From the NCBI GenBank assembly GCA_964658305.1, contig OZ210885.1, positions 14,570,001 to 14,634,000 on the forward strand: a stretch of 64,000 bases of DNA, read 5' to 3'. A model generated the notes under the pieces. The model ran no database searches. It was given only the letters and a program-made list of their open reading frames with translations, and was not told where the DNA came from. A program made the position numbers and the translations under genes. This DNA is from Leptogorgia sarmentosa (taxonomy: Eukaryota). This document shows positions 1,472 to 23,560 of the stretch, in pieces (the first letter of the stretch is position 1; the number at the start of each line of letters is the position of its first letter).

Positions 1472-3329
1472 ATGGAGAATAAAGAGAAGACTGCGGGAAT
1501 TAGCCTGCTACATGGTCTAGGTATTAGTCATAAAGGAAAGATTGTATGGACTTCGTCATTCGAAGCGTTACAGAGTTTGTTCAGGGAAGCTTTAAATTTG
1601 TAAAACAGAGATTGGTCGGCGGGAGGGCAGGCGAGTTTTTATGAAAACAACGATGTAGCTCTTAGGTGGTACACAGATACTAAGTCAATCACACTTGGTG
1701 GCAAACTCGCGAAAGAATTGGAGAAGAAGCTCGATGGCTTCTATATCACAGAACTTAGTAAATGAAGGCATGCCTAATTCTGTCAACGAAGCTGCCAAAG
1801 GTATTCAAATTGCATCAAGCAAGTCTAAGGATCAAAATCTGCATACGGAAGACAATAATGCATTGTTTGAAAACGTAATTAACTCGAAAGCCACTCAATG
1901 CTCTCAAGAAGACAATGCCATCTCCAACTCTGATGATTTCAAACTTACCATAATGACCTGTGTCGAAAATATGAACAGTAAAATGGATTTTCTTATCAAC
2001 GAAGTGAGTGATAATAAACACAGAAGACTGAACGAACTAACAATGTTCGAGGAAGCTCTTGAAGGTTTAAACAAAGAAAACTTGAAAGTTATAAAAGAAA
2101 ATATTGACTTGCAGGAGAGGGATAAATATTTATCACTCATTATGTCCGATTTAAGCGTGGAATTAAAGGATCAAGAGCAGGAAATAAAACGTCTGATCAC
2201 TGCAATTAAGCTCCTCCAAGGTGACAATAAACAAAATAAACAAAATCAACAAGAGGATAGACAGACTACATCCTGGCATACCATACCACCACCTAAAGTG
2301 AAATCCAGAGCGGCGCCTGCACATTGGAAATATTGAAACAAGTAATCAATTCGAGCTGCTTAGTGATGACGAGAATGACGAAACCCGGTCTGATATATCC
2401 CTAGTGTCTCAAAACCAACGAAAACAACCAAAGTACACTTGTGATATGTATCAGAAGCAACCTCCATCCAACGCCAAAGGACCCCAACGTTCATCTCGTG
2501 ATCACCGATTAAGTCATGCCAAGGAAGCACCACGTCCAGACACAACAACCCCTTGGTGAACAAAGAGATATCCAGGCTCACCAACCCTCCAATATTAATC
2601 ATCAGGATGGTCGACAAAGAGACGTCCAGATACAACGACCCCCTAGTGAACAAAGAGAAATCCAGGCTCACCAACCCTCTAGTGGACAAGGTGTACCCAG
2701 GGCCGAACAACAACCCACCAGGGCTCATCATCAAGACAGAAATAGAGTTGTTATTTTGATAGGGGACTCTATAATAAAGCATATAGAACCAAGGAAATTG
2801 TCACGAAAGCGAGTGTATAAATATTCATTTCCAGGAAAAAAGGCCGAAGACATTGCAAAGGAAGTTTACACTATTACTGTGCCAGAAACCCATGATGTGT
2901 CTCGCGTAATAGTCCATGCTGGTACTAAACAATCTCCGAACTGATTCTGCCAATCAATGTGTACAAAACATAAAGAATTTGATAACCAGTGTGAAAGACA
3001 AGTTTCCTAGCGCCAAGATTGGAATCTCTGGCTTGATCATGAGGTATGATATTGAAGTCACGTCCAAAGTGCAAGAAGTGAATAAAGATCTCAGACAAAT
3101 ATGTAAGAACTATGATGCCCATTTCATAGACAATACTAATGTTGACACATCAGGATTAAATAACAGTAAGCTACACCTAAACCCAAAGGGATCTGCAGTG
3201 CTTGCTGTGCAAATAATTAAATTTTTGAGAGGAAGTAGATATACGTCCCAAAAACAGGATTTTCAGAAATCAGTTATAAGACAGATGGAGAATCTACTCA
3301 GGAGACTATCCAGACAGCCAGAACGGTGA
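1472..3329 (+). pseudogene. LINE ORF1 (N-terminal domain, coiled coil, Q/P-rich linker, SGNH/GDSL esterase), disrupted
   Basis: ATG at 1472 reads MENKEKTAGISLLHGLGISHKGKIVWTSSFEALQSLFREALNL*NRDWSAGG...LRWYTDTKSITLGG. A coiled-coil region follows (1695-2336 piece). The esterase blocks LIGDSIIKHI, VIVHAGT/NNL and SKLHLNPKGS are split across frames (2516-2944, 2916-3329). Confidence 0.8.
2531..2683 (+). repeat. Internal ~60-bp duplication with 90-bp period in LINE ORF1
   Basis: cacgtccagacacaacaaccccttggtgaacaaagagatatccaggctcaccaaccctc at 2531 recurs as gacgtccagatacaacgaccccctagtgaacaaagagaaatccaggctcaccaaccctc at 2620. Confidence 0.8.
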
Positions 3330-5985
3330 CTATAAAAGGGATATTGCCAAGTAATTTTAATCCTGGTCCAGTTTTTAATGATAAAGAAATTGCCGGGCGG
3401 GAGTATGAACCTGTGCTGTTGGGTGAAAACCGTAAGTGTGTTGATATTAATTATAAATCATTCAGTAAAGGTTTGGTGATGGCCTCACTAAACATTAATA
3501 GCCTTGTTGCTCATATTGATGAATTCTGAGTCTTTATGAAAGATTCCAATATTGATATTGTTTCAATTAACGAAACAAAACTTGATTCCTCAATTAATGA
3601 TAACGAGGTTTATATATCCGGTTATGAAATAGTAAGAAAAGATAGGAAAAAAAAAAAGACGACATGGAGGGGGTGTCTGTATCTATGTAAGATGCAATCT
3701 TAATTACAAAATTCGCGAGGAATTAAGCTCTGACGAATTAGAGTACTTAACTATCGAGATCACTAAACCCCGGACTAGATCACTAATAATCAGTACTTGA
3801 TACAGGCCTCCAGACTTGCCAGCGTACCACTTTGATTGCTTTGAAAAAATAGTAGGAAAAGTAGACACGACAAATCATGACTATTTTCTGCTCGGTGATA
3901 TAAATGTTGATCTTATGCCGGGTGTATCAGTCAACGCCACTAAATTAAATGATATCTTTGAAGTCTATGGCCTAAAACAACTTATTACAGATCCTACTAG
4001 AACAACACCATATTCTTCTACTTTAATTGATCTTCGTGAACTTTCTATAAGTGATCATGTATTAGTCTATATGACACACAAGGTTAACTACAAACAAACA
4101 GGTTCACGACTTGTTCAAATAAGAAACATGAAAAGTTTCAATAGAGGAAACTATATAAGAGATTTAGAACAACAAGTATGGACGGACGTGAACTTAAGCA
4201 ATGATCCCAATGAGATGTGGGCAAAATGGAAAAATATGTTAACAAATTGCATTGACAAGCATGCACCACTCAGATTAAAAAGAGTTGGGAAAAAGAATTC
4301 CCCCTGGATCACTAGTCAATTAAGGCAAACCATGCGTAACAGGGATTTCCTAAAAAAGAAAGCCAAACAGACTGGCGATCCATTAATATGGGAAAAATAT
4401 AAAGATGTACGAAATTGCACGAGTAATGAAATTAAAAAAGCAAAAAGTCAATATTTTACTAATAAGAAAAATCCAAGATCAACCTGGAAACTTATTAACA
4501 AATTAAATTCTCGCAATACTTCTAGTAACAAAACTATATCTAATATCAAACTGGATGATGAAATTCTAACTACACCCAAGGCATATTGCTGAGACATTTA
4601 ATTCTCACTTTGCTAGTGTGGGTCAGAAATTAGCGTTTGATATACCACCAACAACTGTAAGAATATGTTGTCCCAGCTCAAACTACATTTTCAATGATAT
4701 CCCCTACTGTAAATGCAGTCTTTAAGAAGTTAAAAGCAATCAATGAACGGAAAGCAACTGGTCCTGATAAAATACCTTGTAAGCTTCTCAAAATTGCAGC
4801 AGAGACCATTGCTCCATCGCTAACTCAAATATTTGATAAAAGTATAAGAACGAGTATATCCCCTCATGATTGGAATCTAGCGAGCAAAAAGGGTAAAAAA
4901 GATGATATGGACAATTATAGACCAATATCTGTTATTTCAGTTGTTGCAAAGATTTTTGAAAAGCTGATTTTTGAGCAGTTGTATGAGTATCTAAACAATA
5001 ACGATCTAATAGCAGCATCTCAGTCTGGGTTTCGGCAATTGCACAGCACATTAACTGCCCTAATGGAAGCCACAGATAAGTGGTCAATCAATATAGATAA
5101 TGGGCTTCTTAATGGAGTAATTTTTATTAACCTTAAAAAGGCATTTGATACTATTGATCACACCATACTCTTGGGGAAGTTGCAAATGTACGGTGTTGAC
5201 CAAAATGGTGTCAGGTTCTTTGAATCATACCTAAGTAATCGCAGTCAAAGATGTTGCGTTAATGGTTAATATCTGATGCTGTTAACATAACTTGTGGAAT
5301 ACCACAAGGTACAAATTTGGGACCCTTGTTATTTTTGATATATATATTAATGATCTACCTAATTGTCTTAAAAGAGCCTCTCCAAGAATGTTTGCAGATG
5401 ACACTAATATCAGTGTCGCTGCAAAATCCGTTGCAGAGCTTGAACTAATAATCAACTCAGAAATGAAAAATCTTCATCAATGGCTAATAACTAATAGATT
5501 GAGCCTTAACCTCGCAAAAACGGACTTTATGATAATCGGATCTTGCCAACGACTGCATATGCATAACGATCACATAAGCATAGAAATTGACGGGAAAGCA
5601 ATTGAGAGAGTTAACGAAACGAAATCTTTAGGCTTACAAATCGATGAACACCTTACATGGGCAAGACATGTAGAAAATACCTCCAAAAAGATTGCATCAG
5701 CTGTTGGAGCTCTTAAATGGGTTCGCCAATTTATAGATACAGACACTGCCCTGAAAATTTATATAGCACTGATTCAACCATACTTTCATTACTGTAGCGC
5801 AGTCTGGGATGGGCTAAATACCACTCTAAATGATAAGTTGCAAAAATTGCAAAACAGGGCGGCGAGGATCATCACCAAATCTCGACATGATACTAGCTCC
5901 AGCGAACTGTTTAGTAGACTGGGATGGGATAATCTTCTAATACGAAGAAAAAAGCACAAAGCTATATTGATGTTTAAAACAATTT
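3326..5985 (+). pseudogene. LINE ORF2 (APE endonuclease + reverse transcriptase), disrupted
   Basis: Endonuclease motifs ASLNINSL, INETKLD, GGGV(CIY), LLGDIN and SDH. RT motifs KATGPDKIP, NYRPIS, QSGFR..HST, KKAFDTIDH, GIPQGT.LGP (frameshifted), MFADDT, NRLSLN and LQKLQNRAARII. Confidence 0.92.
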
Positions 5986-5990
5986 CACAG

Positions 5991-6443
5991 AACATTTTAA
6001 AAATCTCAAGATGTATTTTCCATGGTGGATATCTTTGGATGACTACTCAGTCAGCAACGTCACAACTGGAGCCGCAAATCATGACTGCCATCCAGTCACA
6101 GGAACAAACGAGCGTTATAGCATGTACGACAGGTTCCATGAAAAAAACTCCAATAACCCAGATGATGTGCTTAGAAGGCTAGCGATATGCCCACAACTTT
6201 ACGCCAACGTCAATAGCGAGTCGCATGAGCAGCTACACAGTGTCCTGAATAAGGACAATTACTTTTTGAATATGGTGCAGCCTGCAACTCACATTTTCAT
6301 GAAAAGACTTCTGGTTAATCTACGAAATGAGAAATTAAACAATCAGGAAATTAAACGCCAACAGCAGATCTTACAAAAACATGGATTAGTAGGACACATT
6401 TCTACTGATTCATTAGGAAGAATCACAATAATCGGGGATGCAG
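5991..6443 (+). CDS. Exon encoding the C-terminal part of an HMGXB3-like / KDZ-superfamily transposase
   Basis: Acceptor tttcacag| at 5990 and donor |gtatgt at 6444. Translation HPVTGTNERYSMYDRFHEKNS...LRRLAICPQLYANVNSESHEQLHSVLNKDNYFLNMVQPATHIFMKRLLVNLRN...TDSLGRI carries KDZ-type D-x-F-H and NSxxxEQ motifs. It also has the HPVT / L.CP.L / ATH...RL pattern I recall from the HMGXB3 C-terminus. Confidence 0.72.
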
Positions 6444-9400
6444 GTATGTATGACAGAATATTTACGCGATAATTAAAATACAGCAGCTGTAGGGTTTGAG
6501 GGTGAATATGTTTGGCTTGATATTCCATTGGAAAAATTAAATTGTAATGTCAAAACAATATCAAATTCATACATAAAGAATCACATGCAGTATCCATTTT
6601 TTTAATTACACAAATCTGGTTTAGAATCATCTAATTCGAATGGTGCAACTGAGGACCTGGTTGGCTGCAGTCCAGATATAAGTCAGTTTATAATTAGCAA
6701 CACTGATGATAGAGAAAGATTGATCCAAGACTTTAACAAAGAGCTTGTGCCTCGCGTAAGTATACCTGACATAAAGAAAACCTTTACGACAACACAAGTG
6801 ATTTATATAGGAATACAATTAAAGACTTTTGATAATCAGAATCATGCTTCCATTTGGGGTTTTTTTACATGCTAAATTTATTACCTAATCAAGCGGAGTT
6901 GTAATTGGCTAGGTCGTTCCTCTCCCGTAATTGTAAATATGCTTGGAGGTGGTCGGTAATTGGCTAAATGCAAGAGCTAAGGAACATTTTCTGATTTTGT
7001 AAATTTGTATATTTTGGACAAGTTATGGCCAAGACTTGTGATTGTTTTCATCATGTTTTAACTTTATCAGCAACTGTTGGTCCATGCGTTTTGTAAATCT
7101 GAACAACTGATACTTCTTTTAAATATAGGGACTGCAAAATCTACCACAACAAAATCGTTGTTACATAAACAGTTTGCTGCAATGCCTCGCGTCATGTGTA
7201 TCTGTGGAAGCGACTGGCGGTACTGAACTTATGTGGTTGTTGTATTATCAGGCACGAACCGACATCAGCGTCAAACAGGAGGACATTTCCCAGAAATTGG
7301 AGTCTTGTTTTGAAACTAGGTGGTAATAATGAGGCCGATGACCCGGGCGATTTCCTTTATAGCCTTCTTCGCTACACCTCGTCGTTAGGAGAGGAAACAC
7401 TGCAAAAGTAATATAAACAAGTTATTTATAATAGTCATCTTTTTCGCAAAATTGCACCTCGTGCTAACCCGGAGCAAGTCGCATTTCCTATATGTTAATA
7501 AATATTATGTCCGCTGTTTAACTAATAGCAGAAACTGTGTTATTTGTATAATTTCAGTAAATGCTGTGGAATTGAAAGGGTACAGTTGGTATGTCACGTA
7601 TGTCACAACAAACGTCAAGAAATACCATTTACAATTTTCAATCTTCCAAGTAAACCAGAAGTTCTCCATGCAACGGTAGAGGAAATGTTGCTGCAGTATT
7701 TTGAACACGAAGACAAACAGTTGTGCGGAGCATTTTGGTAAGAATCGTGGACAAAAACAGTGCAATAGTAAATAGCATTAACTAGCATTAACATTTTTCT
7801 TCCTTGTCTATCTCTTCTGTGGTGTATATTCTGAATAGCCTTGTGCGCAAGTTTAATTGATAATGTTGATCCAATGAAATGTTATCCCAAAATGTCACTG
7901 TTAATTGGCAAAATATGTTAAAATAAGCAATAAATTAACTTTGGATTGACATACAGTTTTGAAAAATTATGAAAGTAGTAGTTGGCAGTTTCTGGGCTGC
8001 TCTTGTTTACAGTACTGTATGTTGGGGAAATAAAGGTCTTCGAAATTACTTGGATTTCAGAAGAAGCAAAATTTTAATGTACTTTCAAAAGCCCTGCATG
8101 TGAAATGTTCAATTTCAAAGAATGTTACACTTAAAATGTAGCTATTTTGGTTTATGCCAACATGGTTTCTATGCAGCTGGGAATTAGGCCGTAGGATGAG
8201 CATCGAAAAGATGCAGTTCCGTTGCACCCCTCGTGGAACTAAATCATTTTCACATGAATGAATAGATAAAAACTTACTTTATCAGAATCCGTTGCTCCCC
8301 AAACGAAACAGGTGCACAATTGGGAGAAATATCCACTCAAAGTTTACTATTTTCGTGCCTTAAAATAGACAAACCGCCATTGTTTTGGTGAAAATACGCA
8401 TGCGCATATCAGCTATACTCGCACTGCGCACGCGCAGATAGGATATACGGATTTTCCCTGTGGGTTTTCCCTAATTTTTTCAGTAAAAACAACATAGAAT
8501 GACAGAATAGACATCAAAACTTGTGATATTAACGAATAAAAAAGAACAAACACATAATCACAAACACATATATATATTCAGTGGCTACTGTTTCAAAATA
8601 TCGTTTTGATCATTTGATGTCAAATTCTACTTGTACATCCTAATTCAAGCAGTGAACAACGAAGCAGGGTAGCTCGCCGGCTCGCACCAGTGAAGGACCT
8701 TTAACTGTAAAAGAAGGTGCAGGCACCAACTGGAAAGCTGTTATGATGGATAATCATATATAAATTAGTCATTACTGAAAAAATCCCTCTTGTTGCATTC
8801 CGAGGGCCTAAGCTCAAAACCAAAATACATTATGTATTCTACAGAAAGCTATCTAGGCTTTTGTCTGGAAAATTTATATTTCTGTATATATTTGAACTAT
8901 TACATAATTAAGTTGTTATCTGGAATGCTGAGAAAGAAATGAATCTGAGACTTGAGCACCCTCAGTGGCCTAACGGAGGGGTGTCAGGGGCCGGTTGTAT
9001 AAAAACGTAGTTAAAGTTAACGACTATTTAACTACAAAAAGGCTAGTTAAAAAGTAGTTAAGAGCTTTATACAACCGGCCCCAGGGTGTCAAGTGACGGG
9101 GCTCCCAGCGTTAAGGGCCCCCGACAAAAATTACTATAAAAAAATTGACAGCACAATTCTAAGGAATTCAATTACGAAAAACAGGCAGATTGGAAGCTAG
9201 CTGTTGTTGAGTTGCTCATTAATAATGTTATTATGTTATAATTTCACGAAAAACCAAGCTGGCATGCAAAGTCAAACAAAAACGTGCAAAGACGCGCGAA
9301 TCCGAACTTTGCATAGGGTTTTCACAGTCCAAATTGACAAAGTCTGTACGAATGGGGATTTTAATATATTTCCAATAAAATGCAAATATTATTTGTGTTC

Positions 9401-12400
9401 AGGATCCTTCGGAAGCATAATCTCAACAATGTAATAGACCTTATTCTATAGCTATTAATATCTAAGTGTGGAGATTGCGATTGTGTAGACATAAGTTGTA
9501 GTAAATCCAGCCTATTTTGGTAGTTTTAGTGGAGCAAAGGGTGGAGCAAGGTGGCGTTACGCCACTGAGCACCCTTCACACCGACACACCTAAAACCCTG
9601 GCCAGCCCAGACCATATCTTCAGAGTATACATAATAGAAACAAGAACAGTATAATTATACTTTATCAATTGGATTCGCATTATCTATATTTACACGTATA
9701 TCTAGATCTCCTGTCATGGGCAGGTTTAGCAGTCATCGTGGAAGGTAAAACGCACCTGGCGCTAATACAGCCACAAATCTATAAGACAAGTAACTTCGGC
9801 ACGAAAAACCAGTATATGGATTTTGAAATAAAGAAATAAGGATTTGAGGATTTGAGCGTAGGCCTTTAACTAACAAGTAGAATCTTATTTAGGCGATACA
9901 TAGAAGGCATGATTTAAAAGAGCCAAACGTATCTTGCCTAGTTGTCAAATAATCATTGAAATTTTTTTTGAGACTTTCTTCTATTTTATAAATATCCTTT
10001 GAAAACGTTATTGTGCAAAGACACTTGTCATATCTTATCTATTTATGTACTTTATGAATGATTCAGTATAGTACCGCGTCATGTAGACTTACCAGCGTTA
10101 GCAGGTGGAGAAAGTCGAGAAACAGTGTTTTTTCAAATGTTTCTGAGTTTGGTAGAAAAAGTTTGGTTTTCCGGGAAACAAGGAAGAGGATTTGCAATAA
10201 GAGCCAGTATTTCCAGATGTGGGAGGCAAGGAAGAATAAAAGCATTTGAACAAACATTGAAAATCTCCTTGATTTTGTACATATACAGTGGGTCTACACA
10301 AAAAAGGCTACCCTTTGAATTCAACCGCTAGTGCCGCATTCTGTGTTATTTCAGCTGAACAAAAATCCACTGCTTTCTCATTTTAAGCTCATTAATAGGG
10401 AGTTAAAACCATTCCAATTAATAAGCAAAAATAAATTTTAAAATCAAATTCAAATTCAATTTTCGTTTCTTTTCATTGTAAAATCGGGGAAAACCACTGC
10501 GATGTACTAAGATAATATAACAGCTCAGTGGAAAAAAATAAGGGAAAACCCACAGGGGAAAACCATTTGTCTTGTGCGCCTGCGCAGTGCAAATTTGGCA
10601 GACGTGCGCATGCGTATTTGCTACCAAAACAATGGCGGTTCGAATATTTCAAAGCGCGGAATTAGCAAACTTTGGGAGCATTTTTCTCCCAATTGTGCAC
10701 CTGTTTCGTTTGGGGAGCAACGGGTTCTGATAAAGTAAGTTTTTATCTATTCATTCATGTGAAAATTATGTAGTTCCACGAGGGGTGCAACGGAATTCGT
10801 TTTCTAAGCATCTTTTGCCCGCTCATCCCACGGCCTAAATGCTTAACATGCAGAATGAGATTAAACATTTACTTTCATTTTGCCATTATTAGATATCGGC
10901 AGCATTTTGATAAAAATGGAAAATTGACACTGACTATATTGACAACAACTATCAGGACTTCAATTTTCTGTTAGAGTGACATTTTGGCAACTGTGTTGCA
11001 ACATATGATAACGAATTACAGACTATGTATCACTTTACCATAGCACCTGCAGGAAAAACGAAAAAGACGTCGTAGAGTTGCGACAGCCAACTGAACTGCC
11101 TCAAAATTTGATTTGCAACATCCTTCCAGTAGACAAGAGTGGAGAAAAAGTACGAAGTCGTGTTAAGCTACAAAGAAGCATTGGATTTCACGACGTTTTC
11201 GGCACAAGGCATTCATACGGAATATCTGCTTTTATGGTACGTTGCACATGATAGCACATACGTACAGCCAAATGGACCGTTCCTTCATTACGAACAAACT
11301 TCTGAATTAGGAAAATTAATTACTAATCCTCACCACAGCTGGACGTCTTAAGAGCATCCTAAATCTGGTAAATATGGTTGCAAAAATAACTACAGTCCAG
11401 TGAAGTTTGCAGGTTTTGTATATATTATACTTTGTTAAATATTAAATAATATATCTTTATATAGACACACTATGGGAATGATGCCAACGATGGTCACTTT
11501 AACTGTACGGTCCTCCTACGTAATAAGCAATGGTTTTTAATAGACGATAATCTAGTTGAACAGCGTCGGATGTGTGAAACAGATTGGTATGGAGACGTTT
11601 ACATGCTGTTTTACAGTGCAACAGGTTTGTCCGTAGTATACATATATAGTAATTTGCATTAAAAGATAATTACAGTTAAAAATAGTCTTTAACTCATTTA
11701 TAGGTGGTTTCAACGAGGAGATTGTGAACGATGAAAGTATATCAAAGCAAGGTAAAATAGGCCATTTTTCAACTTTGTAGAGTGGTAATTTAATATTGAA
11801 ACGTTGAAAATACTGTGAATATTACACGGAAAACTAAATGTTATATATCAAAATCTAAGTTAGTCCTTCGTAAAAATACAATGCTTCTTATTTTAGTGCA
11901 ATAGCTGTTATAGGTTTTACGTTGTATGATATCAAACAGGATATAGTTTTTTGGGGGACATCCGATATATAGTTCCTATGGCTTACTCACCATATCAGCA
12001 ACTCAACGTAACTTGCAGGTAGTGAAGACGTCGCGGTCCTGACGAGTCCGCCTCAAACATACCAGTCACAAGGATTGGAGGAAGAGGTTTGTTATTTTGT
12101 AACTCTTGCACTGAAATTTGAATGTTGGAGCCGAAACATAAGCAAGACCATGATTTATAACCATCCTTAACCCCTGCTAGGTTGAGACATATTGGAATTT
12201 TAAAGAGGAACAGCAGCTGGACCAGGTTGTGTTGCATATCAACGGAATGCCACTGAGGTTTTATTGTATACCACTGAGGTCGATTGTTGAAGGGAAGGTC
12301 GTCATCTTCGAATCCCAGAGGGAGTTAATTTTGAATAAGTTTAGCTGCAATTCTCAGAGGTGAAAGAATGCGTTTTTCACCGAGATTTTTCAACACGCTC

Positions 12401-14787
12401 GCGTTTGCCTGATTTTCTCCCATATTTTACAAGAAATATGTCATTCAACTGCTAAGACCTTGATCTTTATGACCATGCAAAAATCACGTTCGTACACCCA
12501 GTAATTAACGCACAATGGCATGCCAAAGTTGGATTACCTTTTTTTTGAGACACCCTGTATATGGTTCCCATTACTAACCAACTTTTCCCTTTATGGAATA
12601 TACAGTTAATAAACACCTTTCTGGTGGACCTAAGAAGGAGATCTCAAATAAAAGTAAGTAAACGTAAATTATTAGTACACTACATTACATAAAAAGAGAG
12701 ACATGTACATATAGAGTCTTCACGTGCTGGTAGTTACATTAAATCATTGAACTAAATCTTTAGAAAGATATTCAAATAGAAGTCATGAGCAGCTTCATGT
12801 ACACAAAACTGTGTAGATATGGTGTCCATTCTATGACCAAATGGTTTCAGAAGGTAATCATAATACAGTCGATCACATACAATTTATTTCATATCCAAAT
12901 AGCTAATATATCTATATTTTGATATGAAATAAATACCGTCAAAATGTTGATATCTTTTAATAATTACATTTTTTAGAAACTATTCTCTGAAAAAGATCTA
13001 TGTTTTATTCCATTAAACAGCCAGAATAACCACTGGAATCTTGGGGTAAGTGATTACATAGTAATTGATTAGTATAGATAAGACTTTAAAACAGTCGATA
13101 TTTATCTTTAAAGCTGATTTTTAAAGCTCATCCTTCATAGAATTTTTTTTATAAAACCTGATACTAATTTTGCATTCCTTATATAGGGAAATGACTTGGT
13201 ATTAATTAGCCAATAAATAGTGTGATTCATGCCGTTTTATATATGATGTAGCTAGCTTCTCGCAGAACTTTTATGAATGATTTTATTTTTTATCTGAAAA
13301 TTACTTATTCACTTACTAAACAGTAAACACTAGAAAAAACACGTTTTCGCACGGTTCGTTCCTTTTTTCGTATATTTCTCAATCACCAGAGGAAATGCCT
13401 TAATCTACTTATTCTCTCTCATGTTTTGAATCAGATATAGTCAAATCCTTAAGTTTAAACTCTGTACACAAATTAATACAATTAGGAATACCACAATAAT
13501 TCCATTTTATATTACAGGTGATCGACCTCAATTCATGTACAATCTTACTATACGACCCAATGCTAGTACCAGGAAAAACAGAAATCTTTCACAAAAAGAT
13601 AAGGTATCTATAATATATGGTAAGAAAACTTGCATTTTATAAGAATGCATTACTTACAAAATATCTAATTAATTTCTAGATCACTAATGGCGCACCTTCT
13701 ATCAGAGAGCCAAAACACATCTCTACCTGAAATGAAACATTTCAAAAATTCCACAATGGGAGAACCAAGACAACTTGATGGAAGTTCATGTGGGGTTTTT
13801 GTATGCATGGTGAGTTTACTGAAAATAATCACAATTAACCGAACTGTAGAGTACTGCTGGCAAACACCAAAAATCAGTTGATTTTAATTCCTTGAGAGTA
13901 TATATTGACCCTCACTGTTTTTTCTTAGTAATGCCTTCCCCGTGTTTACATTAAACAATACCCCACCAAAATGTTAATTTTGACAAAATTATCTCTAATT
14001 TTGTTACAAAGTACAACTACTAATTTTAAATGTCGACATGTATTACAGTCATCTATCTTACAGTCTCTAACTTTGAAATTCTTGAATTTAATAATTTATG
14101 AAAAGATATGATAATGAACGAAGGTGAAAATTCCAGAAAAAGAATCAAGTTTCCCAATGTTTCTTTCTTTGGATATACTGCTCCTTTTCTTGAGGTATTC
14201 ACTAACATGTTTCAGGGTTTAGGCTGCTGATTATTTGATGAATGGATTACAAGTTACATTCACTCAGGTAAAGTGATTAATTCAGTCTGCAATTATACAC
14301 AACAACCGGCCCTGTCAAATAGTACTGTTAAAGATATAGATGTATGGTGGTTTGTTACTTTATCAACAGTTGAACTGCTTTATTCTGTTTGAAATGCAGG
14401 ATGACATACCAATATTAAGAAAATATATGGCTTTCCAGCTGGCAAACCCTGCTACAGACCTTCAAATACCAAAGAGGTCAGTTATATACAATGAATAAAA
14501 TTATCTGGCTGGCCATTGTTTCAGAGTTGTAGTAGGTAATTATACCACAGTAGGAATTTAAATGACTAATATCCTACCTGAGAATAATTAGGTTTAGCAC
14601 TTAGTGTATTTTCCTCAGTATGTTAATAACTAATCAGCAAGCTGTTTGATTTTATAGACTTGCTGTGAAGAAACAAAAAAATGAACATGACCATGCTGCT
14701 TACACAGTCAAACTATCAAAAGCTGATAGTTTCAGAGTCCAGAGTGCAATAGTATTCGTACTATTAACTTTCTATTCAATAATGTGA
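5991..14787 (+). CDS. Multi-exon gene 1: HMGXB3-like/KDZ transposase C-terminus + USP (peptidase C19) + Ulp1/SENP (peptidase C48); 5' part missing, probably a damaged copy
   Basis: Hand-built GT-AG exons: 5991-6443, 6625-6755, 7129-7407, 7558-7737, 11044-11236, 11465-11624, 11704-11751, [gap], 12606-12653, 12764-12853, 12977-13045, 13518-13603, 13680-13809, 14223-14267, 14400-14476, 14658-14787(TGA). Intron phases are compatible throughout, with two exceptions: one +1 frameshift near 7310 and an unresolved link between 11751 and 12606. The last exon is less certain. Confidence 0.82.
6625..11624 (+). CDS. Ubiquitin-specific protease (USP/C19) domain over five exons
   Basis: Cys box LVPR|GLQNLPQQNRCYINSLLQCLA; QQD-box-like EADDPGDFLYSLL; Zn-finger Cys pairs CHVC...CGAFC/TC; LPQNLICNI; His box SYGISAFM|THYGNDANDGHFNCTV...WFLIDDNLV...VYMLFY. 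Catalytic Cys, His and Asp are all present. Confidence 0.88.
8963..9567. mobile_element. hAT-type MITE nested in the 8185-10837 element
   Basis: TIRs CAGTGGCCTAAC / GTTACGCCACTG, with a perfect 8-bp TSD AGCACCCT at 8955-8962 and 9568-9575. Confidence 0.88.
8988..9081. mobile_element. 94-bp PIF/Harbinger-group MITE (CWG target) nested in the hAT MITE
   Basis: Perfect 16-bp TIRs GGGCCGGTTGTATAAA / TTTATACAACCGGCCC, with TSD CAG at 8985-8987 and 9082-9084. Confidence 0.88.
11940..12559 (-). mobile_element. Truncated Tc1/mariner-like element end (single TIR + TA) between the USP and Ulp1 exons
   Basis: ttttttgagacaccctg|ta at 12541-12559 reads TA|CAGGGTGTCTCAAAAAA on the minus strand, a typical Tc1/mariner terminus. 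No partner TIR was found. A similarly oriented degenerate copy lies near 11947-11969. The left limit is uncertain. Confidence 0.5.
12606..14476 (+). CDS. Ulp1/SENP-family (C48) protease domain over seven small exons
   Basis: LINTFLVDL | VMSSFMYTKLCRYGVHSMTKW | LFSEKDLCFIPLNSQNNHWNLG | VIDLNSCTILLYDP | PRQLDGSSCGVFVCM | AADYLMNGLQVTFTQ | DDIPILRKYMAFQL. The His-Asp-Gln-Cys catalytic set is intact and the intron phases match. Confidence 0.9.
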
Positions 14788-15429
14788 CCATAATTAACCA
14801 ATCAAACGACCTGAATGTAATGAGGTATTATATAATATCAAATAACAGTTATTATAAACGAGAAAGGGAACCTGGCACGCAGTGGGTTAAATTATCTATG
14901 AAAAATATTATTAAGTAAAATATGTAATAATTGTTAATGTTGTTTAATTAAAAAAAATATTTTTGGAACTTGAAGAATCTTTACTTAACGTGAGAACCTG
15001 TGGCAGGTTTTATACTCCCTAATTGTCAGTGAATCAACCTGCACAATTAACCTGTCATAGTTTGAAAACAACTTACAATCTCTTCAAAATACACACAGTA
15101 AAACCTGTCCAGTCTGTTATTAAATCCAGTAAATGAATTTGGCATGGGAGGAATGTGACCACGTTTTCATTGGAATAAAAGAATGCAATGGCAAATTTTT
15201 GTATCACTTTATATCTACATATTTTAATACAGTCTCTGACTATTAATTTGCTTGGCTAATAAAGAACTACGCTGTCATTAGGACCAGGTGAATCAACCGA
15301 ATGAAACAGACAGTGACTCAGAAACTTCTAAGAGAACTTCGATTTGATATTGGGAAAGCAGTTGCCGAGGCATTTTGCAGATGATGATCAATTAATAATA
15401 TACAAATACTTACTAGTCGAATATGGGGA

Positions 15430-15980
15430 TGTCACGACTTCGCGTAGATGACATTTTCATTTTCCATGGCCAAAGACGCTATGAATGAGGGCGCATATAT
15501 AAACGCAAAATAAGCGCCATGAATTAAGGGCCATGAATTTAATCTGTGCGTCATCATAGAACAATCAATTGCAAGCATAATTCCATATATGGTACGAAGG
15601 GGTGCTCTCGCGTTTTGGGGTCTCCTCGTGTGGGTCTTCTTGCGTAATTGCACTGTCAAACCCTGCTCCGAAAACCAACAAGAATAACCAAGGCCAGGTC
15701 ACAAAGTAACCAGCTTGAGTCCGTGGCGTGGTGGCATTTGTGGGTCCTGGTGTCGAATTAAAATCCAAAATGGCTGCACAAGAAAGCGCCACATGAATAT
15801 TGATCATATTGATGAAGATATGAATATTCATCAGACAAGAACCAGTGAGGTAATTAACTATAGTAATATTCATGTAATAAATGTTACCGCATTGAAGTTA
15901 ATGGCATTATTCACAAAAAAATTGTTAAGATAGTTCGTTAATGAATTACTAAATAGCATGGTTCGTAAATGAATCATACA
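15430..15980. mobile_element. Candidate solo LTR (551 bp)
   Basis: Begins TGTCACG and ends TCATACA (TG...CA), flanked by a 4-bp direct repeat GGGA (15426-15429, 15981-15984). It is GC-richer than the flanks and has no convincing ORF. Confidence 0.5.
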
Positions 15981-15984
15981 GGGA

Positions 15985-16172
15985 CAGGTTGAGTCAGAAA
16001 TTAAAAATGACACACAAAAAATTCATATTAGGGCGGCCGAGACGAGAATCTGTTGACATGCTTCGTACCTAGTTTGTTCATGCCTGTGTTATTCAGACAC
16101 GTAGTTGCGATTAAATGATGAAGTGCAGGTAATTTGAATTTCAAACAATGTCAGTTTTTCTGACTCAGCCTG
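15985..16172. mobile_element. Small MITE-like inverted-repeat element (Tc1/mariner-like ends)
   Basis: CAGGTTGAGTCAGAAA (15985-16000) pairs with TTTCTGACTCAGCCTG (16157-16172) with 1 mismatch. TA is present on the right flank only. Confidence 0.55.
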
Positions 16173-17432
16173 TAGCAGAATGGGCCTGAATCACTGGGAT
16201 ATGGCTGTGTGCCTGTGCAATATGGCATTCTTGACGACGTAGCAAGATATATTTGAAATAACTGAATACAAAAATAAAGTTGTTCAGTGATAAAAACGCT
16301 TAAATTAACTTTCTAGTTAGAAAGGATTACCAAAGTACGACTAATCTTCATTAGTATTACTAATTATAATAAAATAATGTAGGTAGTGTCAAATCTGCAA
16401 CAATGCTAATGAGCGTGCATTCAAACAGTGTTATGCACACATCTATCTATTGAATTACAAATATACTAAAATAACATACATAAAGATGCTTGGCTTGTTT
16501 GCCTTTGCTCAGATAAAGGGAGATGTGTTGTTGTTTGGCAACATTTGAGAACACATGTTATTACATGTAAAAAGAATTGTAATTTTGATCTTAATAAAGT
16601 TGTTTGTTGCCGTAATATTCTCATATATTATGAAAGAAATCGTGCTAGTGTTATTTGGAATCTTCTGTGAATAGATTACTGCACATGTGGTAATTTTCAA
16701 TGATTGAAATACTTAGAGAGTGTATTTTTAGTGTTATTTTTTTAACTTTTTCAGTTCCTGAAGTGCATAACCATTGACATTAGCTATCTGAAAAGACCAG
16801 TATGATAAAGCTACTGCAATAAACATTGAGTCGGCTATTCTTATTGCAATTACTTCTGGCTGTCATTTATCCAAAGCATCCTCTATTTGTCAATGTACGT
16901 CTCAAGGCTACAGTTTTAATGAACTGGAACAGCTGTATATGAGCAGATAACTTTTGAATAGTTTCCAGATTCCCAGGACATCTGTATCTGTTTGTTGAAA
17001 ATTACATCCAATAAATCAGCTTAAAGAAGGTGATTTAATTTACATGGGGTTAAATTCAAGAAAGATACCATCAACCATGTGTCCAAGCAACAAGTCTGCA
17101 TTATTACCATTCAACTGAAGAGGCAAAGTGTTTGTCAGAGCAAAATTTCTTCACTGCTACTTTGGCCACACTTAGTTACCATACTGCTGACAACATGTAG
17201 GAATCCAGTCCATTTAATGATCATTTTATACAAGAATCTAGTTTAATATTGATCTTGCAAGGTATTATGAGTACTGCTTATTTGGAGCATTAAAGCTGAG
17301 TTTCAGATTGTACATAATCCCAATGATTCAATAGTTATACAGTGAATGTGTTACTTATATGCCATTATTATGCGATGGTTTCGTCGAAAAGCAAATATTC
17401 TCGAGTTTTAGGCACAAATGAGGACTTCCCAT

Positions 17433-17700
17433 TGTTGGGAATATGGCGGTGTGGGTGAATGTCTTTTGTATTGTGTATAATTGTATTACGTAATTGAATT
17501 CTGTTCTGTGGATGTATTGTTCTGTATTGTGTAATTAATTCAAGATGTATGTAAATGTAAATTAGCTTGTGTATATAAGGTTGAACTAGACAAACTTAGG
17601 TGTGATTTTTCTTGTGATATATCTGGAGTTGAGGAATATAAGTATTTAAGGAGCAGTTGGAGTCTTTCTTTTTCTTATGATATCGTGGCAGAACGCGACA
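17433..17700 (+). repeat. 5' LTR
   Basis: TG...CA, 268 bp. I count 6 substitutions relative to the 3' LTR. Confidence 0.96.
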
Positions 17701-17702
17701 TT

Positions 17703-17720
17703 TGGCGACCCAGACAGGAT
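17703..17720 (+). promoter_or_regulatory. Primer binding site (probably tRNA-Arg)
   Basis: TGGCGACCCAGACAGGAT lies 2 bp after the 5' LTR. TGG pairs with the tRNA CCA end, and the rest resembles the complement of tRNA-Arg 3' ends (from memory). Confidence 0.8.
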
Positions 17721-17755
17721 TCAGTTGAGCTATAATTTACTTGACTGATCGGAAA

Positions 17756-19188
17756 ATGCCTTTGACCCGAGCGCAAGCTGCTCAAGAAGAGAGAAACGGC
17801 AATGCAGACGAGTCAGAGAATAAAGAGGTGGACCTTGGACAAGCTCGCTCGCCGTTTGAAACAGAGTTACTGGCTACCGTGCAAGAACAGCGAGACCTGT
17901 TGAAGGAATATAAAGATCACGAAGACAGCAGAGTTTCCGAGGTGGTCACTATTTTGAACGGCACAATGCAAAACCTATCCGACGAATTTGCTCGTGTTTG
18001 TGACCAGAACAGACAGCTAAAGACTGTTGTTTTCCAGTTAAGCGATCGTGTGGACGCCCTTGAATCCGAAATGAAATTAAGCCAGGAACGATCAGAGAAA
18101 ATTAATGCCGGAGTGTTCGCTTCGTTACACCGATTAATTAAAAGCGAGCTTCAAGAAGAATTTGAATCGATGTTGGCGTCGCGTATGAAGTCAGTAAATG
18201 AAAGCTTGTCTACCTGGTTAAATGTAACGGGACGATGCTGATCACAATCTGGAAATGCGTCAACGCCATGTTGTCAGCTCGATAAAGAGAAACAACCAAC
18301 AGAGTGCAATGCTACGTCGACTTGTGGGGCAGATTCTTCGGCTGGTCGCCCGGTTCAGAAACCTGCAATGTTTGACGGACGTAGCTCTTGGGAGGCGTAT
18401 GTGACGCAGTTTAAAATTGTCGCCGAGATTAACCAGTGAGTTGGTCCAGATAAAGCTGCATTTTTGGCGACAAGTCTTAGAGGTCCAGTGCTGACGGTGT
18501 TATCAAATTGCCGGCCGAAAGTCATGTCCATTACCCATCGTTACTGGCTGCATTGGAAAGCCGCTTTGGAAACAAAAGGCAATCTGAGCTCCATAGAATG
18601 AAGCTACGGAATCGTGTTAGGCGTCGCGACGAAACTTTGCCAGAATTGGCGGCAGATATCGAAAGACTCGCTCGTCTCGCTTCCCCGGAAGCCCCTGTTG
18701 ATGTTCTCGAGACTTTAACAAAAGATCAGTTCATAGATGCTTTGTATGACGATGAAACGCGCTTAAGAATTGCTCAAGCAAGACCTACAACTCTAAGAGC
18801 CGCGCTGGGAATCGCTTTGGAAATTGAGTCGTTTAGCTTGGCTGCACGAAGAAGAGCTAGACCGGTGAGAACGGTGCACGAGACATCGAGTGACGCGAAC
18901 ACTGAATGCTTGGTGGACTGCCAGGAGGAAATAATCAAGACGAATAGCGAGTTTTTAGCCGAGTTGAAGAAAATGACCTCAGAGCTTCACCAAGTAGTCA
19001 AGAGTGTGAATGGAAGAGGAAGAGGAAGAAATCACGCTAGTTCACCGCCAAGAGGAAAAAGAAAGTGTTGGACATGTGGCTTGGAAGATCATCTCCAACG
19101 GGACTGTCGGCTGTATAACGCTGAGAAGGAACGTACTGAGTCGGGAAACGAGGAAATGTCGGGTCAGAGGGGTGGGGCCCGACAGTAA
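17756..19188 (+). pseudogene. Gypsy gag, disrupted
   Basis: ATG at 17756, a coiled coil, KPAMFDGRSSWEAYVTQF, LESRFG, DQFIDAL and the CCHC knuckle CWTCGLEDHLQRDC. Stops and frameshifts occur near 18240, 18438 and 18505. Confidence 0.9.
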
Positions 19189-19199
19189 GAGAAGACACC

Positions 19200-22100
19200 T
19201 CAAGTGGCCAGAGACTTTTACAAAGGACAGACGGCCTTTGTGTAGAAGGAAGACTCGAAGAAAAAACTATGCATATGGTTGTAGACACTGGAAGTAACAT
19301 CTCAATCGTCGCTCCTCAACTGTTGCAGAACATTGGAAAAGACTTGTCGTGTGTACAACCGGTTCCGAACTGCTTGAAATCTGTAACTGGGGAAAAGTTG
19401 GGGGCAGTTACGCTTAAATTTGATATCGGTAACCGAGAAATCCTACAGTCGTTTCATGTGGCAGAAATTAGTGAATCCTGTATTTTGGGGCTGGACTTCC
19501 TGCGGCAACAACGGTGTCACCTCGACATTACGAATGGAATGCTATTAATGGGAAATGTTCAAGTTTCTCTTCTGCATTCTTCGTCGGACGATTTGGAGAG
19601 GCTTTGTTATCGAGTGGTAGCTCTTGAAGACATGAATATTCAACCCCATACTGAGGCTGTTGTTCCTGCGAAAGTGGTTGACTATACTGGCAAGAGTGGG
19701 TGGGGAATCATTGAAGCAGCTGAAGAGGAATCTGTTCCTGGAGTCCTGATTGGTAAAGTTTTGACAAAATTAATGAACGAAACCCCAGTAGTTTTAGTGC
19801 AAATGGTTAATGTGACAGAAGAGAAAAGAAAAGTTTCAGCGGGAACTGACTTGGCAAAATGTGAGACTGTAAGTTTCGTTGTTCGTTCTGACTTGGAGAG
19901 TTGTCCTGGTGGTAGCGAAGAGTCCACAACGCTAAAAGAAATCCCAAAACATCTAGCTGAATTGTACGAGAGTAGTGCAAGAGATTTGGTCGATGAGGAG
20001 CAGAGAAATAAACTGTTCGGCTTATTATGGGAGAATGCTACTGTGTTCTCCAGTGACCCTTCGGATTTGGGAAGAACTGATATCGTGAAACATCAGATAA
20101 CAACTGGTTCAGCGAAGCCAATTAAACAGCCTCCGAGACGGTTACCTCTCGCGAAAAGAGATGTGGCTTGCCAAGCGGTGGACAAGATGCTGAAGGAAGG
20201 AGTTATTGAACCTTCAACGAGTCCTTGGTCCTCACCGGTGGTGTTGGTTGCAAAGAAGGACGGCAGCCTTCGGTTTTGCGTAGACTATCGCAAGCTCAAC
20301 GAGGTGACGGTTAAAGACTCTTACCCATTACCCAGAATTGATGACACCCTCGATGCCTTGAGTGGTTCAATGGTTTTCGACATTAGATCTCAAGTCGGGG
20401 TATTGGCAGGTTGCAATGGATCCTGCCACCAAGGAAAAGACAGCATTCAGCATTGGTGGGGGTTTATGGCATTTTCGGGTAATGCCATTTGGGTTATGCA
20501 ACGTCCCCGCCACATTCGAATGATTAATGGGTCATGTACTTGCAGGGTTACCATGGAACGTCTGTCTCGTGTATCTGGATGATATCATCGTCCATGGTAG
20601 ATCTTTCTCCGCGCAGCTAGAAAACTTGCAGAAAGTATTCTTGTGTTTGAGAAAAGCCAATCTGAAACTCTCCCCTGAGAAGTGTAATTTGTTCCGCCGT
20701 GAAGTCAAATACTTGGGTCATATCATCAGTTATAAGGGCGTAGCAACAGATCCCGCGAAGATCAACAGTAGAGACCTTAAGATTGGCGTATTTTTTTCAC
20801 CGCAAACGTCAAGAAGCCACGTGACGAGTGCTTGCGGTAAATTTTGCCGTTTGCGGTCCACGTTTCAACGTGAGGAGGTGCTTCCAGAGGTAAGTCGCTT
20901 ACTGCAAGTTTTTTTTGCTATTATCGCTGTCAAAATTCAGATAAAATGCTTAAAACGTATTTCCTAATTATATTAACAAATCAAATATTTGATTTATATC
21001 CTTTAAGCGTTTATTTTAAGTCATTTGTGAAGCAAAAACATACATATTGGGCCGCTACCATCTTGAATTTTTCACACTGCAGTAAACCCACAGATCTTAA
21101 TCTTCTAAAAATCGTATACCGCTGACGGCAACGCCAACGTACGACTGCGGTTCGCCGTAAACGCCAATCTTAAGGTCTCTAGTGTCAAGGATTGGCCTCG
21201 TCCAACGTGCCTGGCTGAATTGCGAAGTTTCTTGGGACTATGTTCCTACTACCGAAAGTTTATACGGAATTTCGCAGAAATTGCAAATTCACTCACTCGA
21301 CTAACACAGAAGGATGTGAAGTTCGCTTGGGAATCGGAAACTGAGAACGTGTTTCAACAATTAAAATGGTCTATGAAGGAACGTTGATATTAGACACAGA
21401 TGCGAGCGGTGTCGCTATCGGGGCTGTCTTGTCACAAAAACAAGGCTCCGAAGAAAAAGTCATCGCATATTTCAGTCGCTCACTTAATTGAACACAGCGC
21501 CAGTATTGTACAACAAGACGGGAATTACTAGCTGTGGTAAAATCACTGGCTCATTTCCACCCATATCTTTACGGAAGAAACTTTGTTGTGCGCACAGATC
21601 ATTCTTCTCTTCGGTGGTTGGTTAATTTTAAGTACGCAGAAGGTCAACTCGCACGCTGGTTGCAGAAAATTCAACAATACGATTTAAAGCTTGAACATCG
21701 AGCCGGAAAATATCATCTCAATGCCGATGCATTGTCCCGACGACCATGTCTTGAGGAACATTGCAAGAACTGCGATAGAGCCGAAGCAAAAGAACATTCG
21801 GCTAGAGAAGCTCATTGTGTAGATGAAAATCATAGATTGACCTTGGTAACCAACCGAGTGAGAAGGCATTCACCTGTTGAGGACCGAGATATTGGTGATT
21901 TGGTAGATGTTGACCTTATCAAAAATTTGGGACCGCAAGACATAGTAAAAGCCCAAGAAAAGGATCCCGACCTAGGACATGTACTGGAGTGGGTGAAGAG
22001 AGATAATGAAAGACCGCAGTGGTCCGAAGTCTCGGCTATTAGTGAAGTGATGAAGAATTGCTGGGCACAATGGCACAGTTTGTGTCTGCGGAATAATATT

Positions 22101-23242: not shown

Positions 23243-23292
23243 GAATTGCATGCACCATCATTGGGACAATTTGATGGTTTAGTTGGGGGCAA

Positions 23293-23560
23293 TGTTGGGA
23301 ATATGGCCGTGTGGGTGAATGTCTTTTGTATTGTGTATAATTGTATTACATAATTGAATTCTGTTCAGTGGATGTATTGTTCTGTATTGTGTAATTAATT
23401 CAAGATGTATGTAAATGTAAATTAGCTTGTGTATATAAGGTCGAACTAGACAAACTTAGGTGTGATTTTTCTTGTGATATATCTGGAGTTGAGGAATATA
23501 AGTATTTAAGGAGCAGTTGGAGTCTTTCTTTTTCTTAGGATATCGCGGCAGAACGCGACA
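23293..23560 (+). repeat. 3' LTR (preceded by the purine-rich tract agttgggggcaa)
   Basis: 268-bp direct repeat of 17433-17700. Confidence 0.96.

What the first reader, a model, noticed from the sequence alone, without database searches (positions are those of the whole stretch)
5991..14787. Spliced transposase-deubiquitinase-deSUMOylase fusion (KDZ/HMGXB3-like + USP + Ulp1)
Seen: the KDZ-like exon ends in phase 1 and joins a linker exon (6625-6755, phase 1->0). That exon splices to give LVPR|GLQNLPQQNRCYINSLLQCL, a USP Cys box. Three more exons complete the USP (GHF...WFLIDD...YMLFY), and seven small exons give a Ulp1 with intact H/D/Q/C. Known: Zisupton/KDZ elements are intron-rich and can carry a Ulp1-type SUMO protease. 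Inference: a catalytically complete USP between the transposase and Ulp1 in one polypeptide is not an architecture I know as described. It could remove both ubiquitin and SUMO from the transposase or target chromatin. The ORF track shows almost none of this.
Basis: partly seen in the sequence, partly recalled or inferred. Interest (0 to 1): 0.9.

Follow-up and report, generated by a model that had tools for sequence, protein, structure and literature searches.

The report
Transposase with deubiquitinase and SUMO protease
This is a broken copy of an animal jumping-gene whose spliced gene joins a cut-and-paste transposase to a ubiquitin-protease domain and a SUMO-protease domain, a triple layout also annotated in lancelets, which likely lets the element strip both host tags from itself or its target DNA.

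Summary
The fusion is real, but this copy is dead. Spliced contigs from public runs show 12 of my 16 exon joints exactly, and one contig runs from the transposase exon through the whole USP into the first Ulp1 exon. The transposase exon has 379 relatives; a folded relative is a DDE/RNase H transposase with a SAP domain. Lancelet proteins carry the same CxC4-transposase + USP + Ulp1 order with all catalytic residues, in near-identical copies on two scaffolds. Relatives put OTU + Ulp1 (abalone, 10 scaffolds), OTU, Josephin or Ulp1 alone in the same slot. The spliced contigs shown are also frame-broken. Proteases on transposases are known (Ulp1 or OTU on Ginger, C19 on a Trichomonas transposase); a deubiquitinase plus Ulp1 in tandem on a Zisupton-type transposase I did not find in print, but the two founding papers were not held. 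New variant of a known kind.

The parts
1659..5984 (+). Decayed LINE (esterase-like ORF1 piece, reverse transcriptase), cut at its 3' end; abuts the transposase gene and is not part of it. 5' limit approximate
   Evidence: GDSL-like E 3e-6 and RVT_1 E 5e-16; other LINE copies continue differently behind 5984
5985..6004 (.).
   Evidence: loose ends at 5984 and 6005/6006 in 3 of 4 DNA-type runs; one contig of the fourth run (X14) spans 5800-6044
6005..6443 (+). Exon: C-terminal part of the DDE/RNase H transposase core (conserved D 6128, E 6227); 5'-truncated
   Evidence: 379 homologs at E<=0.001; conserved columns; fold of relative P0029; X8 contig has 1292 more bases upstream
6625..6755 (+). 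Linker exon; natural acceptor and first codons lost
   Evidence: 24-base gap against DNA contigs; spliced contigs enter at 6616
7129..7407 (+). USP exon 1: Cys box (Cys 7159) and Asp box (7340); frameshifted near 7300
   Evidence: UCH; joints 6755^7129 and 7407^7558; frame count
7558..7737 (+). USP exon 2: zinc-finger CxxC
   Evidence: joints; alignment
8217..10795 (.). Non-coding element with long terminal inverted repeats inside the 3306-base intron
   Evidence: arms 8217-8389 and 10623-10795, 91% complementary; spliced out in contigs
11044..11236 (+). USP exon 3
   Evidence: joints 7737^11044 and 11236^11465
11465..11624 (+). USP exon 4: His box (His 11495, Asp 11543)
   Evidence: UCH E 7.6e-6; all 6 PDB hits are USPs, best E 0.022
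11704..11751 (+). Linker exon between USP and Ulp1
   Evidence: joints
12019..12086 (+). Linker exon
   Evidence: joints
12181..12264 (+). First Ulp1 exon, 3' half missing
   Evidence: joint 12086^12181 and loose end at 12264 in X9; continuation absent from window; no GT at 12265
12265..12561 (.). Repeat insertion replacing the end of that exon; right end resembles a Tc1/mariner terminus (motif recalled). Limits approximate
   Evidence: high depth 12058-12819 and loose end at 12277; sequence
12606..12653 (+). Ulp1 exon
   Evidence: joint 12653^12764
12764..12853 (+). Ulp1 exon
   Evidence: joint 12853^12977
12977..13045 (+). Ulp1 exon with catalytic His 13031
13518..13603 (+). Ulp1 exon with catalytic Asp 13554
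   Evidence: joint 13603^13680
13680..13809 (+). Ulp1 exon with Gln 13771 and Cys 13789
   Evidence: Peptidase_C48
14223..14267 (+). Ulp1 C-terminal exon (acceptor inferred from frame; the intron before it is retained in the contigs shown)
   Evidence: joint 14267^14400
14400..14535 (+). Last coding exon, stop at 14496-14498
   Evidence: joint 14535^14658; translation
14658..14787 (+). 3' UTR exon in the isoform seen (coding only with an alternative donor that was not displayed)

Best explanation
The region is a 5'-truncated, frameshifted copy of a multi-exon Zisupton-type DNA transposon gene that splices a DDE transposase to a USP domain and then a Ulp1 domain, and whose intact form likely removes ubiquitin and SUMO from the transposase or from chromatin around it. 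Shown: exon structure and splicing, domain identity, catalytic residues, the same order in lancelet proteins, multi-copy relatives, decay of this copy. Inferred: that the intact protein is an active transposase (fold and copy number, no ends seen); that the USP cuts ubiquitin and the SENP1-like Ulp1 cuts SUMO (family knowledge, untested); that the purpose is to undo a host SUMO-then-ubiquitin relay that would silence the locus or pull the DNA-bound transposase off for degradation (my inference, about 0.45). The slot behind the transposase is interchangeable: relatives carry OTU + Ulp1, OTU, Josephin, Ulp1 or F-box there.
For: One 1305-base X9 contig carries the joints from the transposase exon to the Ulp1 exon at 12181. 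XP_066301003.1 (Branchiostoma lanceolatum, P0042) has CxC4 + UCH (E 1e-23) + C48 (E 4e-13); XP_078614543.1 (P0162) the same plus weak SAP. The window's read-through matches them over transposase tail, Cys box, His box and Ulp1 (E about 1e-37), with Cys/His/Asp and His/Asp/Gln/Cys aligned. Relative P0029 folds at pLDDT 87 and matches DDE enzymes (ISCth4 transposase Z 9.3, rmsd 3.8, 214 aligned; foamy virus integrase Z 8.0) plus SAP domains. Copies: lancelet hybrid models 98-99.6% alike on two scaffolds; abalone OTU + Ulp1 cluster on 10 scaffolds, 97.6-99.7% in the 4 of 10 other members compared. Of 63 hits of 300 aa or more (of 150 listed): UCH + C48 2, C48 alone 5, OTU 1, Josephin 6, CxC4 17, CxC7 2. 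The lancelet Ulp1 is closest to SENP1 (E 1e-15). Decay: 17 amino-acid-changing to 7 silent differences against the X8 copy among the 24 coding rows used.
Against: No contig shown encodes the intact triple protein in this organism's kin: X8, X9 and X12 have a 282-base Cys-box exon that puts a stop at the next joint; X8 and X13 include an extra exon with an in-frame stop between the Ulp1 His and Asp; the intron after 13809 is retained. Only one DNA contig (X2, 6861-7782) is in frame over USP exons 1-2. The runs are not on record as RNA; I read them as RNA from their GT..AG joints. The lancelet proteins are gene models, not tested proteins. Window and lancelet USPs are only 20% identical. Pfam's KDZ model hits 0 of 63 relatives. 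No terminal repeats or target duplications could be examined. DNA copies that lack the USP also exist, so the USP may be dispensable.
Confidence: 0.7

Rival explanations
1. The proteases mainly process the element's own polyprotein, cutting the transposase free of its tail, rather than editing host ubiquitin or SUMO marks.
For: Suggested for OTU on MULE transposases (PMC1702500, passage). A Thr-Gly-Gly follows the window's USP and a Gly-Gly precedes the USP in P0162.
Against: Neither Gly-Gly is shared by all three proteins; P0042 has none at either place. Four unrelated ubiquitin-family protease classes in one slot fit host-mark removal better than one self-cut site (inference).
Confidence: 0.1
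2. The USP is neutral cargo: captured host or viral exons that ride along and are lost freely, with no role in transposition.
For: DNA copies join intron 1 (6464) straight to sequence at about 11936, dropping the whole USP (protein P0161 reads through the same join), and such a form is spliced (6445 to 12190). The sibling copy is polymorphic for USP frameshifts. Only 2 of 63 long relatives carry UCH.
Against: USP catalytic residues are kept in two lancelet lineages at 66% identity and in the window at 20%, which neutral cargo would not do over that distance. A divergent copy of USP exon 2 in run X14 has 5 silent to 5 changing differences among the 10 of 26 shown (weak).
Confidence: 0.12
3. It is a domesticated, transposase-derived host gene (like HMGXB3, recalled) that targets a dual deubiquitinase/deSUMOylase to chromatin, and the window holds a pseudogene of it.
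For: Many introns, spliced contigs in 3 studies, low copy number: about three versions of the transposase exon and one USP-bearing version by contig depth in X2.
Against: Zisupton elements are multi-exonic by nature (PMC9297572, passages). The spliced copy is frame-broken, differences look neutral, and relatives are near-identical copies on several scaffolds.
Confidence: 0.08

Closest known systems
Zisupton / KDZ DNA transposons (Bohne et al. 2012; Iyer et al. 2014; neither held, known here through passages of PMC12062965, PMC12730594, PMC9297572)
   Same: Multi-exon gene; transposase exon homologous to fish proteins with CxC7 + F-box and to CxC4 + SAP proteins; Ulp1 tail (that Zisupton carries Ulp1 is recalled).
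   Different: A USP domain sits between transposase and Ulp1. Pfam KDZ (PF18758) is not hit by these relatives. Ends not seen.
Ginger1 transposases with OTU or Ulp1 (Bao, Kapitonov, Jurka 2010, PMC2836005; passages)
   Same: C-terminal ubiquitin/SUMO protease fused to a DDE transposase of marine invertebrates; the paper proposes a role of these pathways in transposition.
   Different: Different transposase family; the paper states that either OTU or Ulp1 is present, not both.
Trichomonas vaginalis XP_001314237.1, transposase + peptidase C19 (cited in PMC2836005)
   Same: USP-class domain on a DNA transposase.
   Different: transposase_11 domain; no Ulp1 mentioned.
Helitron-like elements carrying OTU, UCH or Peptidase_C48 (PMC11417382; passages)
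   Same: Same protease classes captured by a transposon.
   Different: Rolling-circle elements; the passages seen do not describe UCH and C48 in one protein.
Branchiostoma XP_066301003.1 and XP_078614543.1 (uncharacterized RefSeq models)
   Same: Same order: CxC4 transposase, USP, Ulp1, with catalytic residues.
   Different: Full-length and open; 35% identical in the transposase tail, 20% in USP, 26-28% in Ulp1.

Membership tests
Zisupton/KDZ transposons | Transposase homologous to Zisupton-type proteins with CxC zinc clusters and SAP | tested here: met
   17 of 63 long hits carry CxC4, 2 carry CxC7 (defined on platyfish Zisupton per PMC12062965), several SAP. The window keeps only the C-terminal part.
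Zisupton/KDZ transposons | Match to Pfam KDZ model PF18758 | tested here: inconclusive
   0 of 63 at E<=0.001, 0 of 9 at E<=1; the fish CxC7/F-box proteins, the positive controls, miss it too.
Zisupton/KDZ transposons | DDE/RNase H catalytic core | tested here: met
   Model of relative P0029 matches DDE transposases and integrases, top Z 9.3; Foldseek alone found nothing at E<=0.001. The window keeps H, D, H and E of the last conserved columns.
Zisupton/KDZ transposons | Terminal inverted repeats and 8-bp target site duplication | not testable with these tools
   5' end is missing in the window and no genome is held.
Zisupton/KDZ transposons | Dispersed, near-identical copies | tested here: met
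   Abalone cluster on 10 scaffolds, lancelet hybrid on 2; about three versions of the exon in DNA contigs. Not countable in the window's own genome.
Zisupton/KDZ transposons | Multi-exon gene | tested here: met
USP / peptidase C19 | Cys box, Asp box, His box with Cys-His-Asp triad | tested here: met
   full-length UCH match 2-254/254 in lancelet proteins
USP / peptidase C19 | Triad in one open frame in this copy | tested here: not met
   frameshift near 7300; so the window holds a pseudogene of a USP, not a working one
USP / peptidase C19 | Ubiquitin cleavage | not testable with these tools
   needs an assay; the fold of P0032 was too poor to use (pLDDT 44)
Ulp1/SENP, peptidase C48 | His-Asp-Cys triad with oxyanion Gln | tested here: met
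   SENP1 best PDB match of P0032
Ulp1/SENP, peptidase C48 | N-terminal WLND segment | tested here: not met
   lost with the 3' half of the exon at 12181 in the window; present in P0042
Ulp1/SENP, peptidase C48 | SUMO specificity (not NEDD8 or ubiquitin) | not testable with these tools
   needs an assay

The most novel reading that the evidence does not exclude
Animal Zisupton transposases have an exchangeable slot that has taken up four classes of ubiquitin-family protease (USP, OTU, Josephin, Ulp1) and has at least twice built a deubiquitinase + deSUMOylase tandem (USP-Ulp1, OTU-Ulp1). This marks a host SUMO-to-ubiquitin relay against DNA-bound transposases as a general anti-transposon defence, and the tandem as its dedicated counter-measure.
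Probability: 0.3. Interest if true: 0.75.

Novelty: new variant of a known kind. Interest (0 to 1): 0.5.

Why it matters
Why so many transposases carry Ulp1 or OTU domains has been an open guess since 2006-2010. A family in which one transposase carries both a deubiquitinase and a SUMO protease, and close relatives swap the deubiquitinase class, gives a natural matched set for testing it. Young, open copies exist in lancelet and abalone genomes. It also flags compact, uncharacterized USP and Josephin domains that sit in databases as host genes. The window's own copy is only a pointer to that family.

Tried and rejected
No whole genome is held, so copy number, ends and empty sites could not be examined. 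Word-indexed search with the transposase exon for longer proteins found none; the full HMMER search did. No RNA holder was listed as such. Foldseek on the transposase model gave no match at E<=0.001; a profile search of PDB sequences gave only SAP and low-complexity hits. The fold of the USP-Ulp1 protein P0032 was low-confidence (pLDDT 44) and was not searched. USP exon 2 alone does not match the lancelet profile (probability 0.5%). Trees of the transposase tail leave the window and lancelet lineages in an open basal fork; one origin of the USP is neither shown nor rejected (44 rows; 24 rows, p-AU 0.385; close relatives of the window are fragments with unknown cargo; the other hits were left out). 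A custom USP profile found no further USP among the 169 proteins then held beyond those used to build it and their copy P0032. The ESM Atlas gave a 65-member cluster with C48 (100%) and UCH (83%) and viral compact USPs at score 0.82, a lead only; the query with the window's exon did not complete. A frame-saving donor after 7319 was rejected. Self-cleavage at Gly-Gly was considered and found unconserved. Complex prediction was not used. Literature searches without a description of this architecture: Zisupton + ubiquitin (8 papers, 6 listed); Zisupton (123, 40 listed); two of KDZ transposase/deubiquitin/Ulp1/Josephin/HMGXB3 (25 of 1005 listed); transposon + Ulp1 + ubiquitin-specific protease + transposase (0); (2); Kyakuja + peptidase (3 listed); (1, the Ginger paper); HMGXB3 + transpos (7); (0); Zisupton + Ulp1 (0). 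Bohne 2012, Iyer 2014 and Gladyshev 2009 were not held, nor is Repbase; their figures or supplements may already show this layout.
Full report
Setting. The window is eukaryotic, AT-rich and repeat-laden: a decayed LINE up to 5984, the finding at 6005-14787, an LTR element at about 17430-23560 and a 128-base satellite from 29083 to the end. No genome is held. The host is probably a marine invertebrate; that is inferred from the relatives, not shown.

Exons. My chain has 17 exons; 15 of 16 joints have GT..AG ends. Pfam, on 16 stretches, gives UCH for the exons at 7129 and 11465, Peptidase_C48 for the exon at 13680 and nothing for the transposase-like exon. All catalytic residues are present: USP Cys 7159, His 11495, Asp 11543; Ulp1 His 13031, Asp 13554, Gln 13771, Cys 13789.

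Splicing. Of 18 runs listed, none is on record as RNA, but the four I laid on 5200-16600 give contigs with GT..AG joints at the exon ends, so I read them as RNA. They show 12 of the 16 joints exactly; 10 more joints were not displayed. One X9 contig of 1305 bases carries the end of the transposase exon, the linker, all four USP exons and the first Ulp1 exon; the piece lengths add up to its length. The three domains therefore belong to one spliced gene in a sibling copy a few percent different from the window.

This copy is broken. (a) DNA contigs of three runs continue upstream of 6005 with more transposase and continue the LINE differently behind 5984; an X8 contig has 1292 more bases upstream. 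The window has lost most of the transposase, and the acceptor at 5991 lies in filler. One contig of a fourth run spans the junction, so it is not unique to this assembly. (b) 24 bases at the second acceptor are missing. (c) The Cys-box exon is 279 bases where the next exon needs phase 2; it stops at 7324. (d) The exon at 12181 ends at 12264 against a repeat; what follows it in X9 is not in the window. Differences from the X8 copy are 17 changing to 7 silent among the 24 coding rows I used from the 40 displayed, as expected without selection.

The sibling copy is decaying too. In X8, X9 and X12 the Cys-box exon is 282 bases, which puts a stop at the next joint; X8 and X13 include an extra small exon with an in-frame stop inside Ulp1; the intron after 13809 is retained. 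One DNA contig (X2, 6861-7782), whose 9 gap letters and 12 differences are all displayed, is in frame over USP exons 1-2. Other DNA copies join 6464 to about 11936 and so lack the whole USP; a spliced form of this kind is seen.

What the transposase is. The exon has 379 relatives at E<=0.001; 150 were listed. Of the 63 of 300 aa or more, 17 carry CxC4, 2 CxC7, several SAP, none Pfam's KDZ model. The CxC7 + F-box hits are fish proteins, and CxC7 was defined on platyfish Zisupton (PMC12062965, passages). A relative folded from a 60-row alignment (pLDDT 87) matches DDE transposases and integrases, best ISCth4 at Z 9.3, and SAP domains; Foldseek alone missed this. The window's exon corresponds to the last part of that core and keeps the final conserved D and E.

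The same layout elsewhere. XP_066301003.1 of Branchiostoma lanceolatum and XP_078614543.1 / XP_078612960.1 of a lancelet hybrid have transposase, UCH and C48 in this order, with triads intact; the hybrid's models are 98-99.6% alike on two scaffolds. The window's read-through, with X at the breaks, matches them at E about 1e-37, though the USPs are only 20% identical; both have an NRCY Cys box. Trees do not settle one origin or two. The slot is exchangeable: abalone has CxC4 + OTU + Ulp1 on 10 scaffolds; among the 63, six have Josephin (one from a nemertean), one OTU, five Ulp1 alone.

How it most likely works. Intact copies would make one protein of about 1400-1600 residues: DNA-binding zinc clusters and SAP, a DDE core that cuts and joins DNA, then two cysteine isopeptidases. 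By family knowledge the USP removes ubiquitin and the SENP1-like domain removes SUMO. Tethered to a transposase, their nearest substrates are the transposase and the chromatin it sits on. SUMO marking followed by SUMO-targeted ubiquitination clears proteins stuck on DNA, and SUMO takes part in transposon silencing (both recalled, no call). A tandem of both activities, built twice with different deubiquitinases, fits a counter to that relay. This step is inference; self-processing, neutral cargo and domestication are the rivals.

What is known. Bao et al. 2010 (PMC2836005, passages) report OTU or Ulp1, not both, on Ginger1, Ulp1 on Mutator, OTU on Helitrons and C19 on a Trichomonas transposase. 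PMC11417382 (passages) lists OTU, UCH and C48 in Helitrons. PMC1702500 (one passage) reports OTU on MULEs. PMC9297572 (passages) and PMC12730594 (passages and one section) describe Zisupton as multi-exonic with terminal repeats and 8-bp duplications and do not mention proteases. PMC3706591, PMC5718144, PMC3424704 and PMC10318531 (term searches) added nothing. Ten full-text searches found no description of a USP + Ulp1 or Josephin tail on Zisupton, but Bohne 2012 and Iyer 2014 were not held and may show it.

Verdict. Real architecture, dead copy, new variant of the known theme of protease-carrying transposases. Interest 0.5.

Noticed in passing
proteins P0120, P0123, P0134, P0136, P0143, P0149: Zisupton-type transposases with a C-terminal Josephin (ataxin-3 family) deubiquitinase domain, in two separate branches of the tree; one is from the nemertean Tubulanus polymorphus. 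I found no mention in the papers listed.
   Followed up: partly
P0168 cluster, Haliotis rufescens and H. cracherodii: Young multi-copy element with CxC4 transposase + OTU + Ulp1, a second deubiquitinase-deSUMOylase tandem.
   Followed up: partly
P0083: Relative ending in Ulp1 + PHD + SprT-like metalloprotease.
   Followed up: no
P0169, XP_066272006.1, Branchiostoma lanceolatum: Two tandem compact USP domains 41-46% identical to the transposon USP, without a transposase in the model.
   Followed up: partly
window 8217-10795: 2.6-kb non-coding element with long imperfect inverted ends inside a USP intron; also covered by low-depth contigs of X8 and X9, so shared with the sibling copy; holds a further high-copy repeat at about 8985-9085.
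   Followed up: partly
window 5800-6044 and 7604-7779, run X14: A run labelled as another organism spans the LINE/transposase junction at 98% identity but otherwise shows only an 85% copy of USP exon 2. Unexplained.
   Followed up: no
window 17430-23560: LTR retroelement (271-base direct repeat at 97%, zinc knuckle, protease, integrase), broken by frameshifts, with a 420-base insert bounded by inverted repeats at 20765-21185.
   Followed up: no
window 29083-64000: 128-base satellite array, about 276 copies, 89% matches; the transposon debris lies at its edge.
   Followed up: no
ESM Atlas: A 65-member cluster of about 780 aa with C48 (100%) and UCH (83%), and compact giant-virus USPs, as nearest look-alikes of the lancelet USP-Ulp1 region; score 0.82, lead only.
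   Followed up: no
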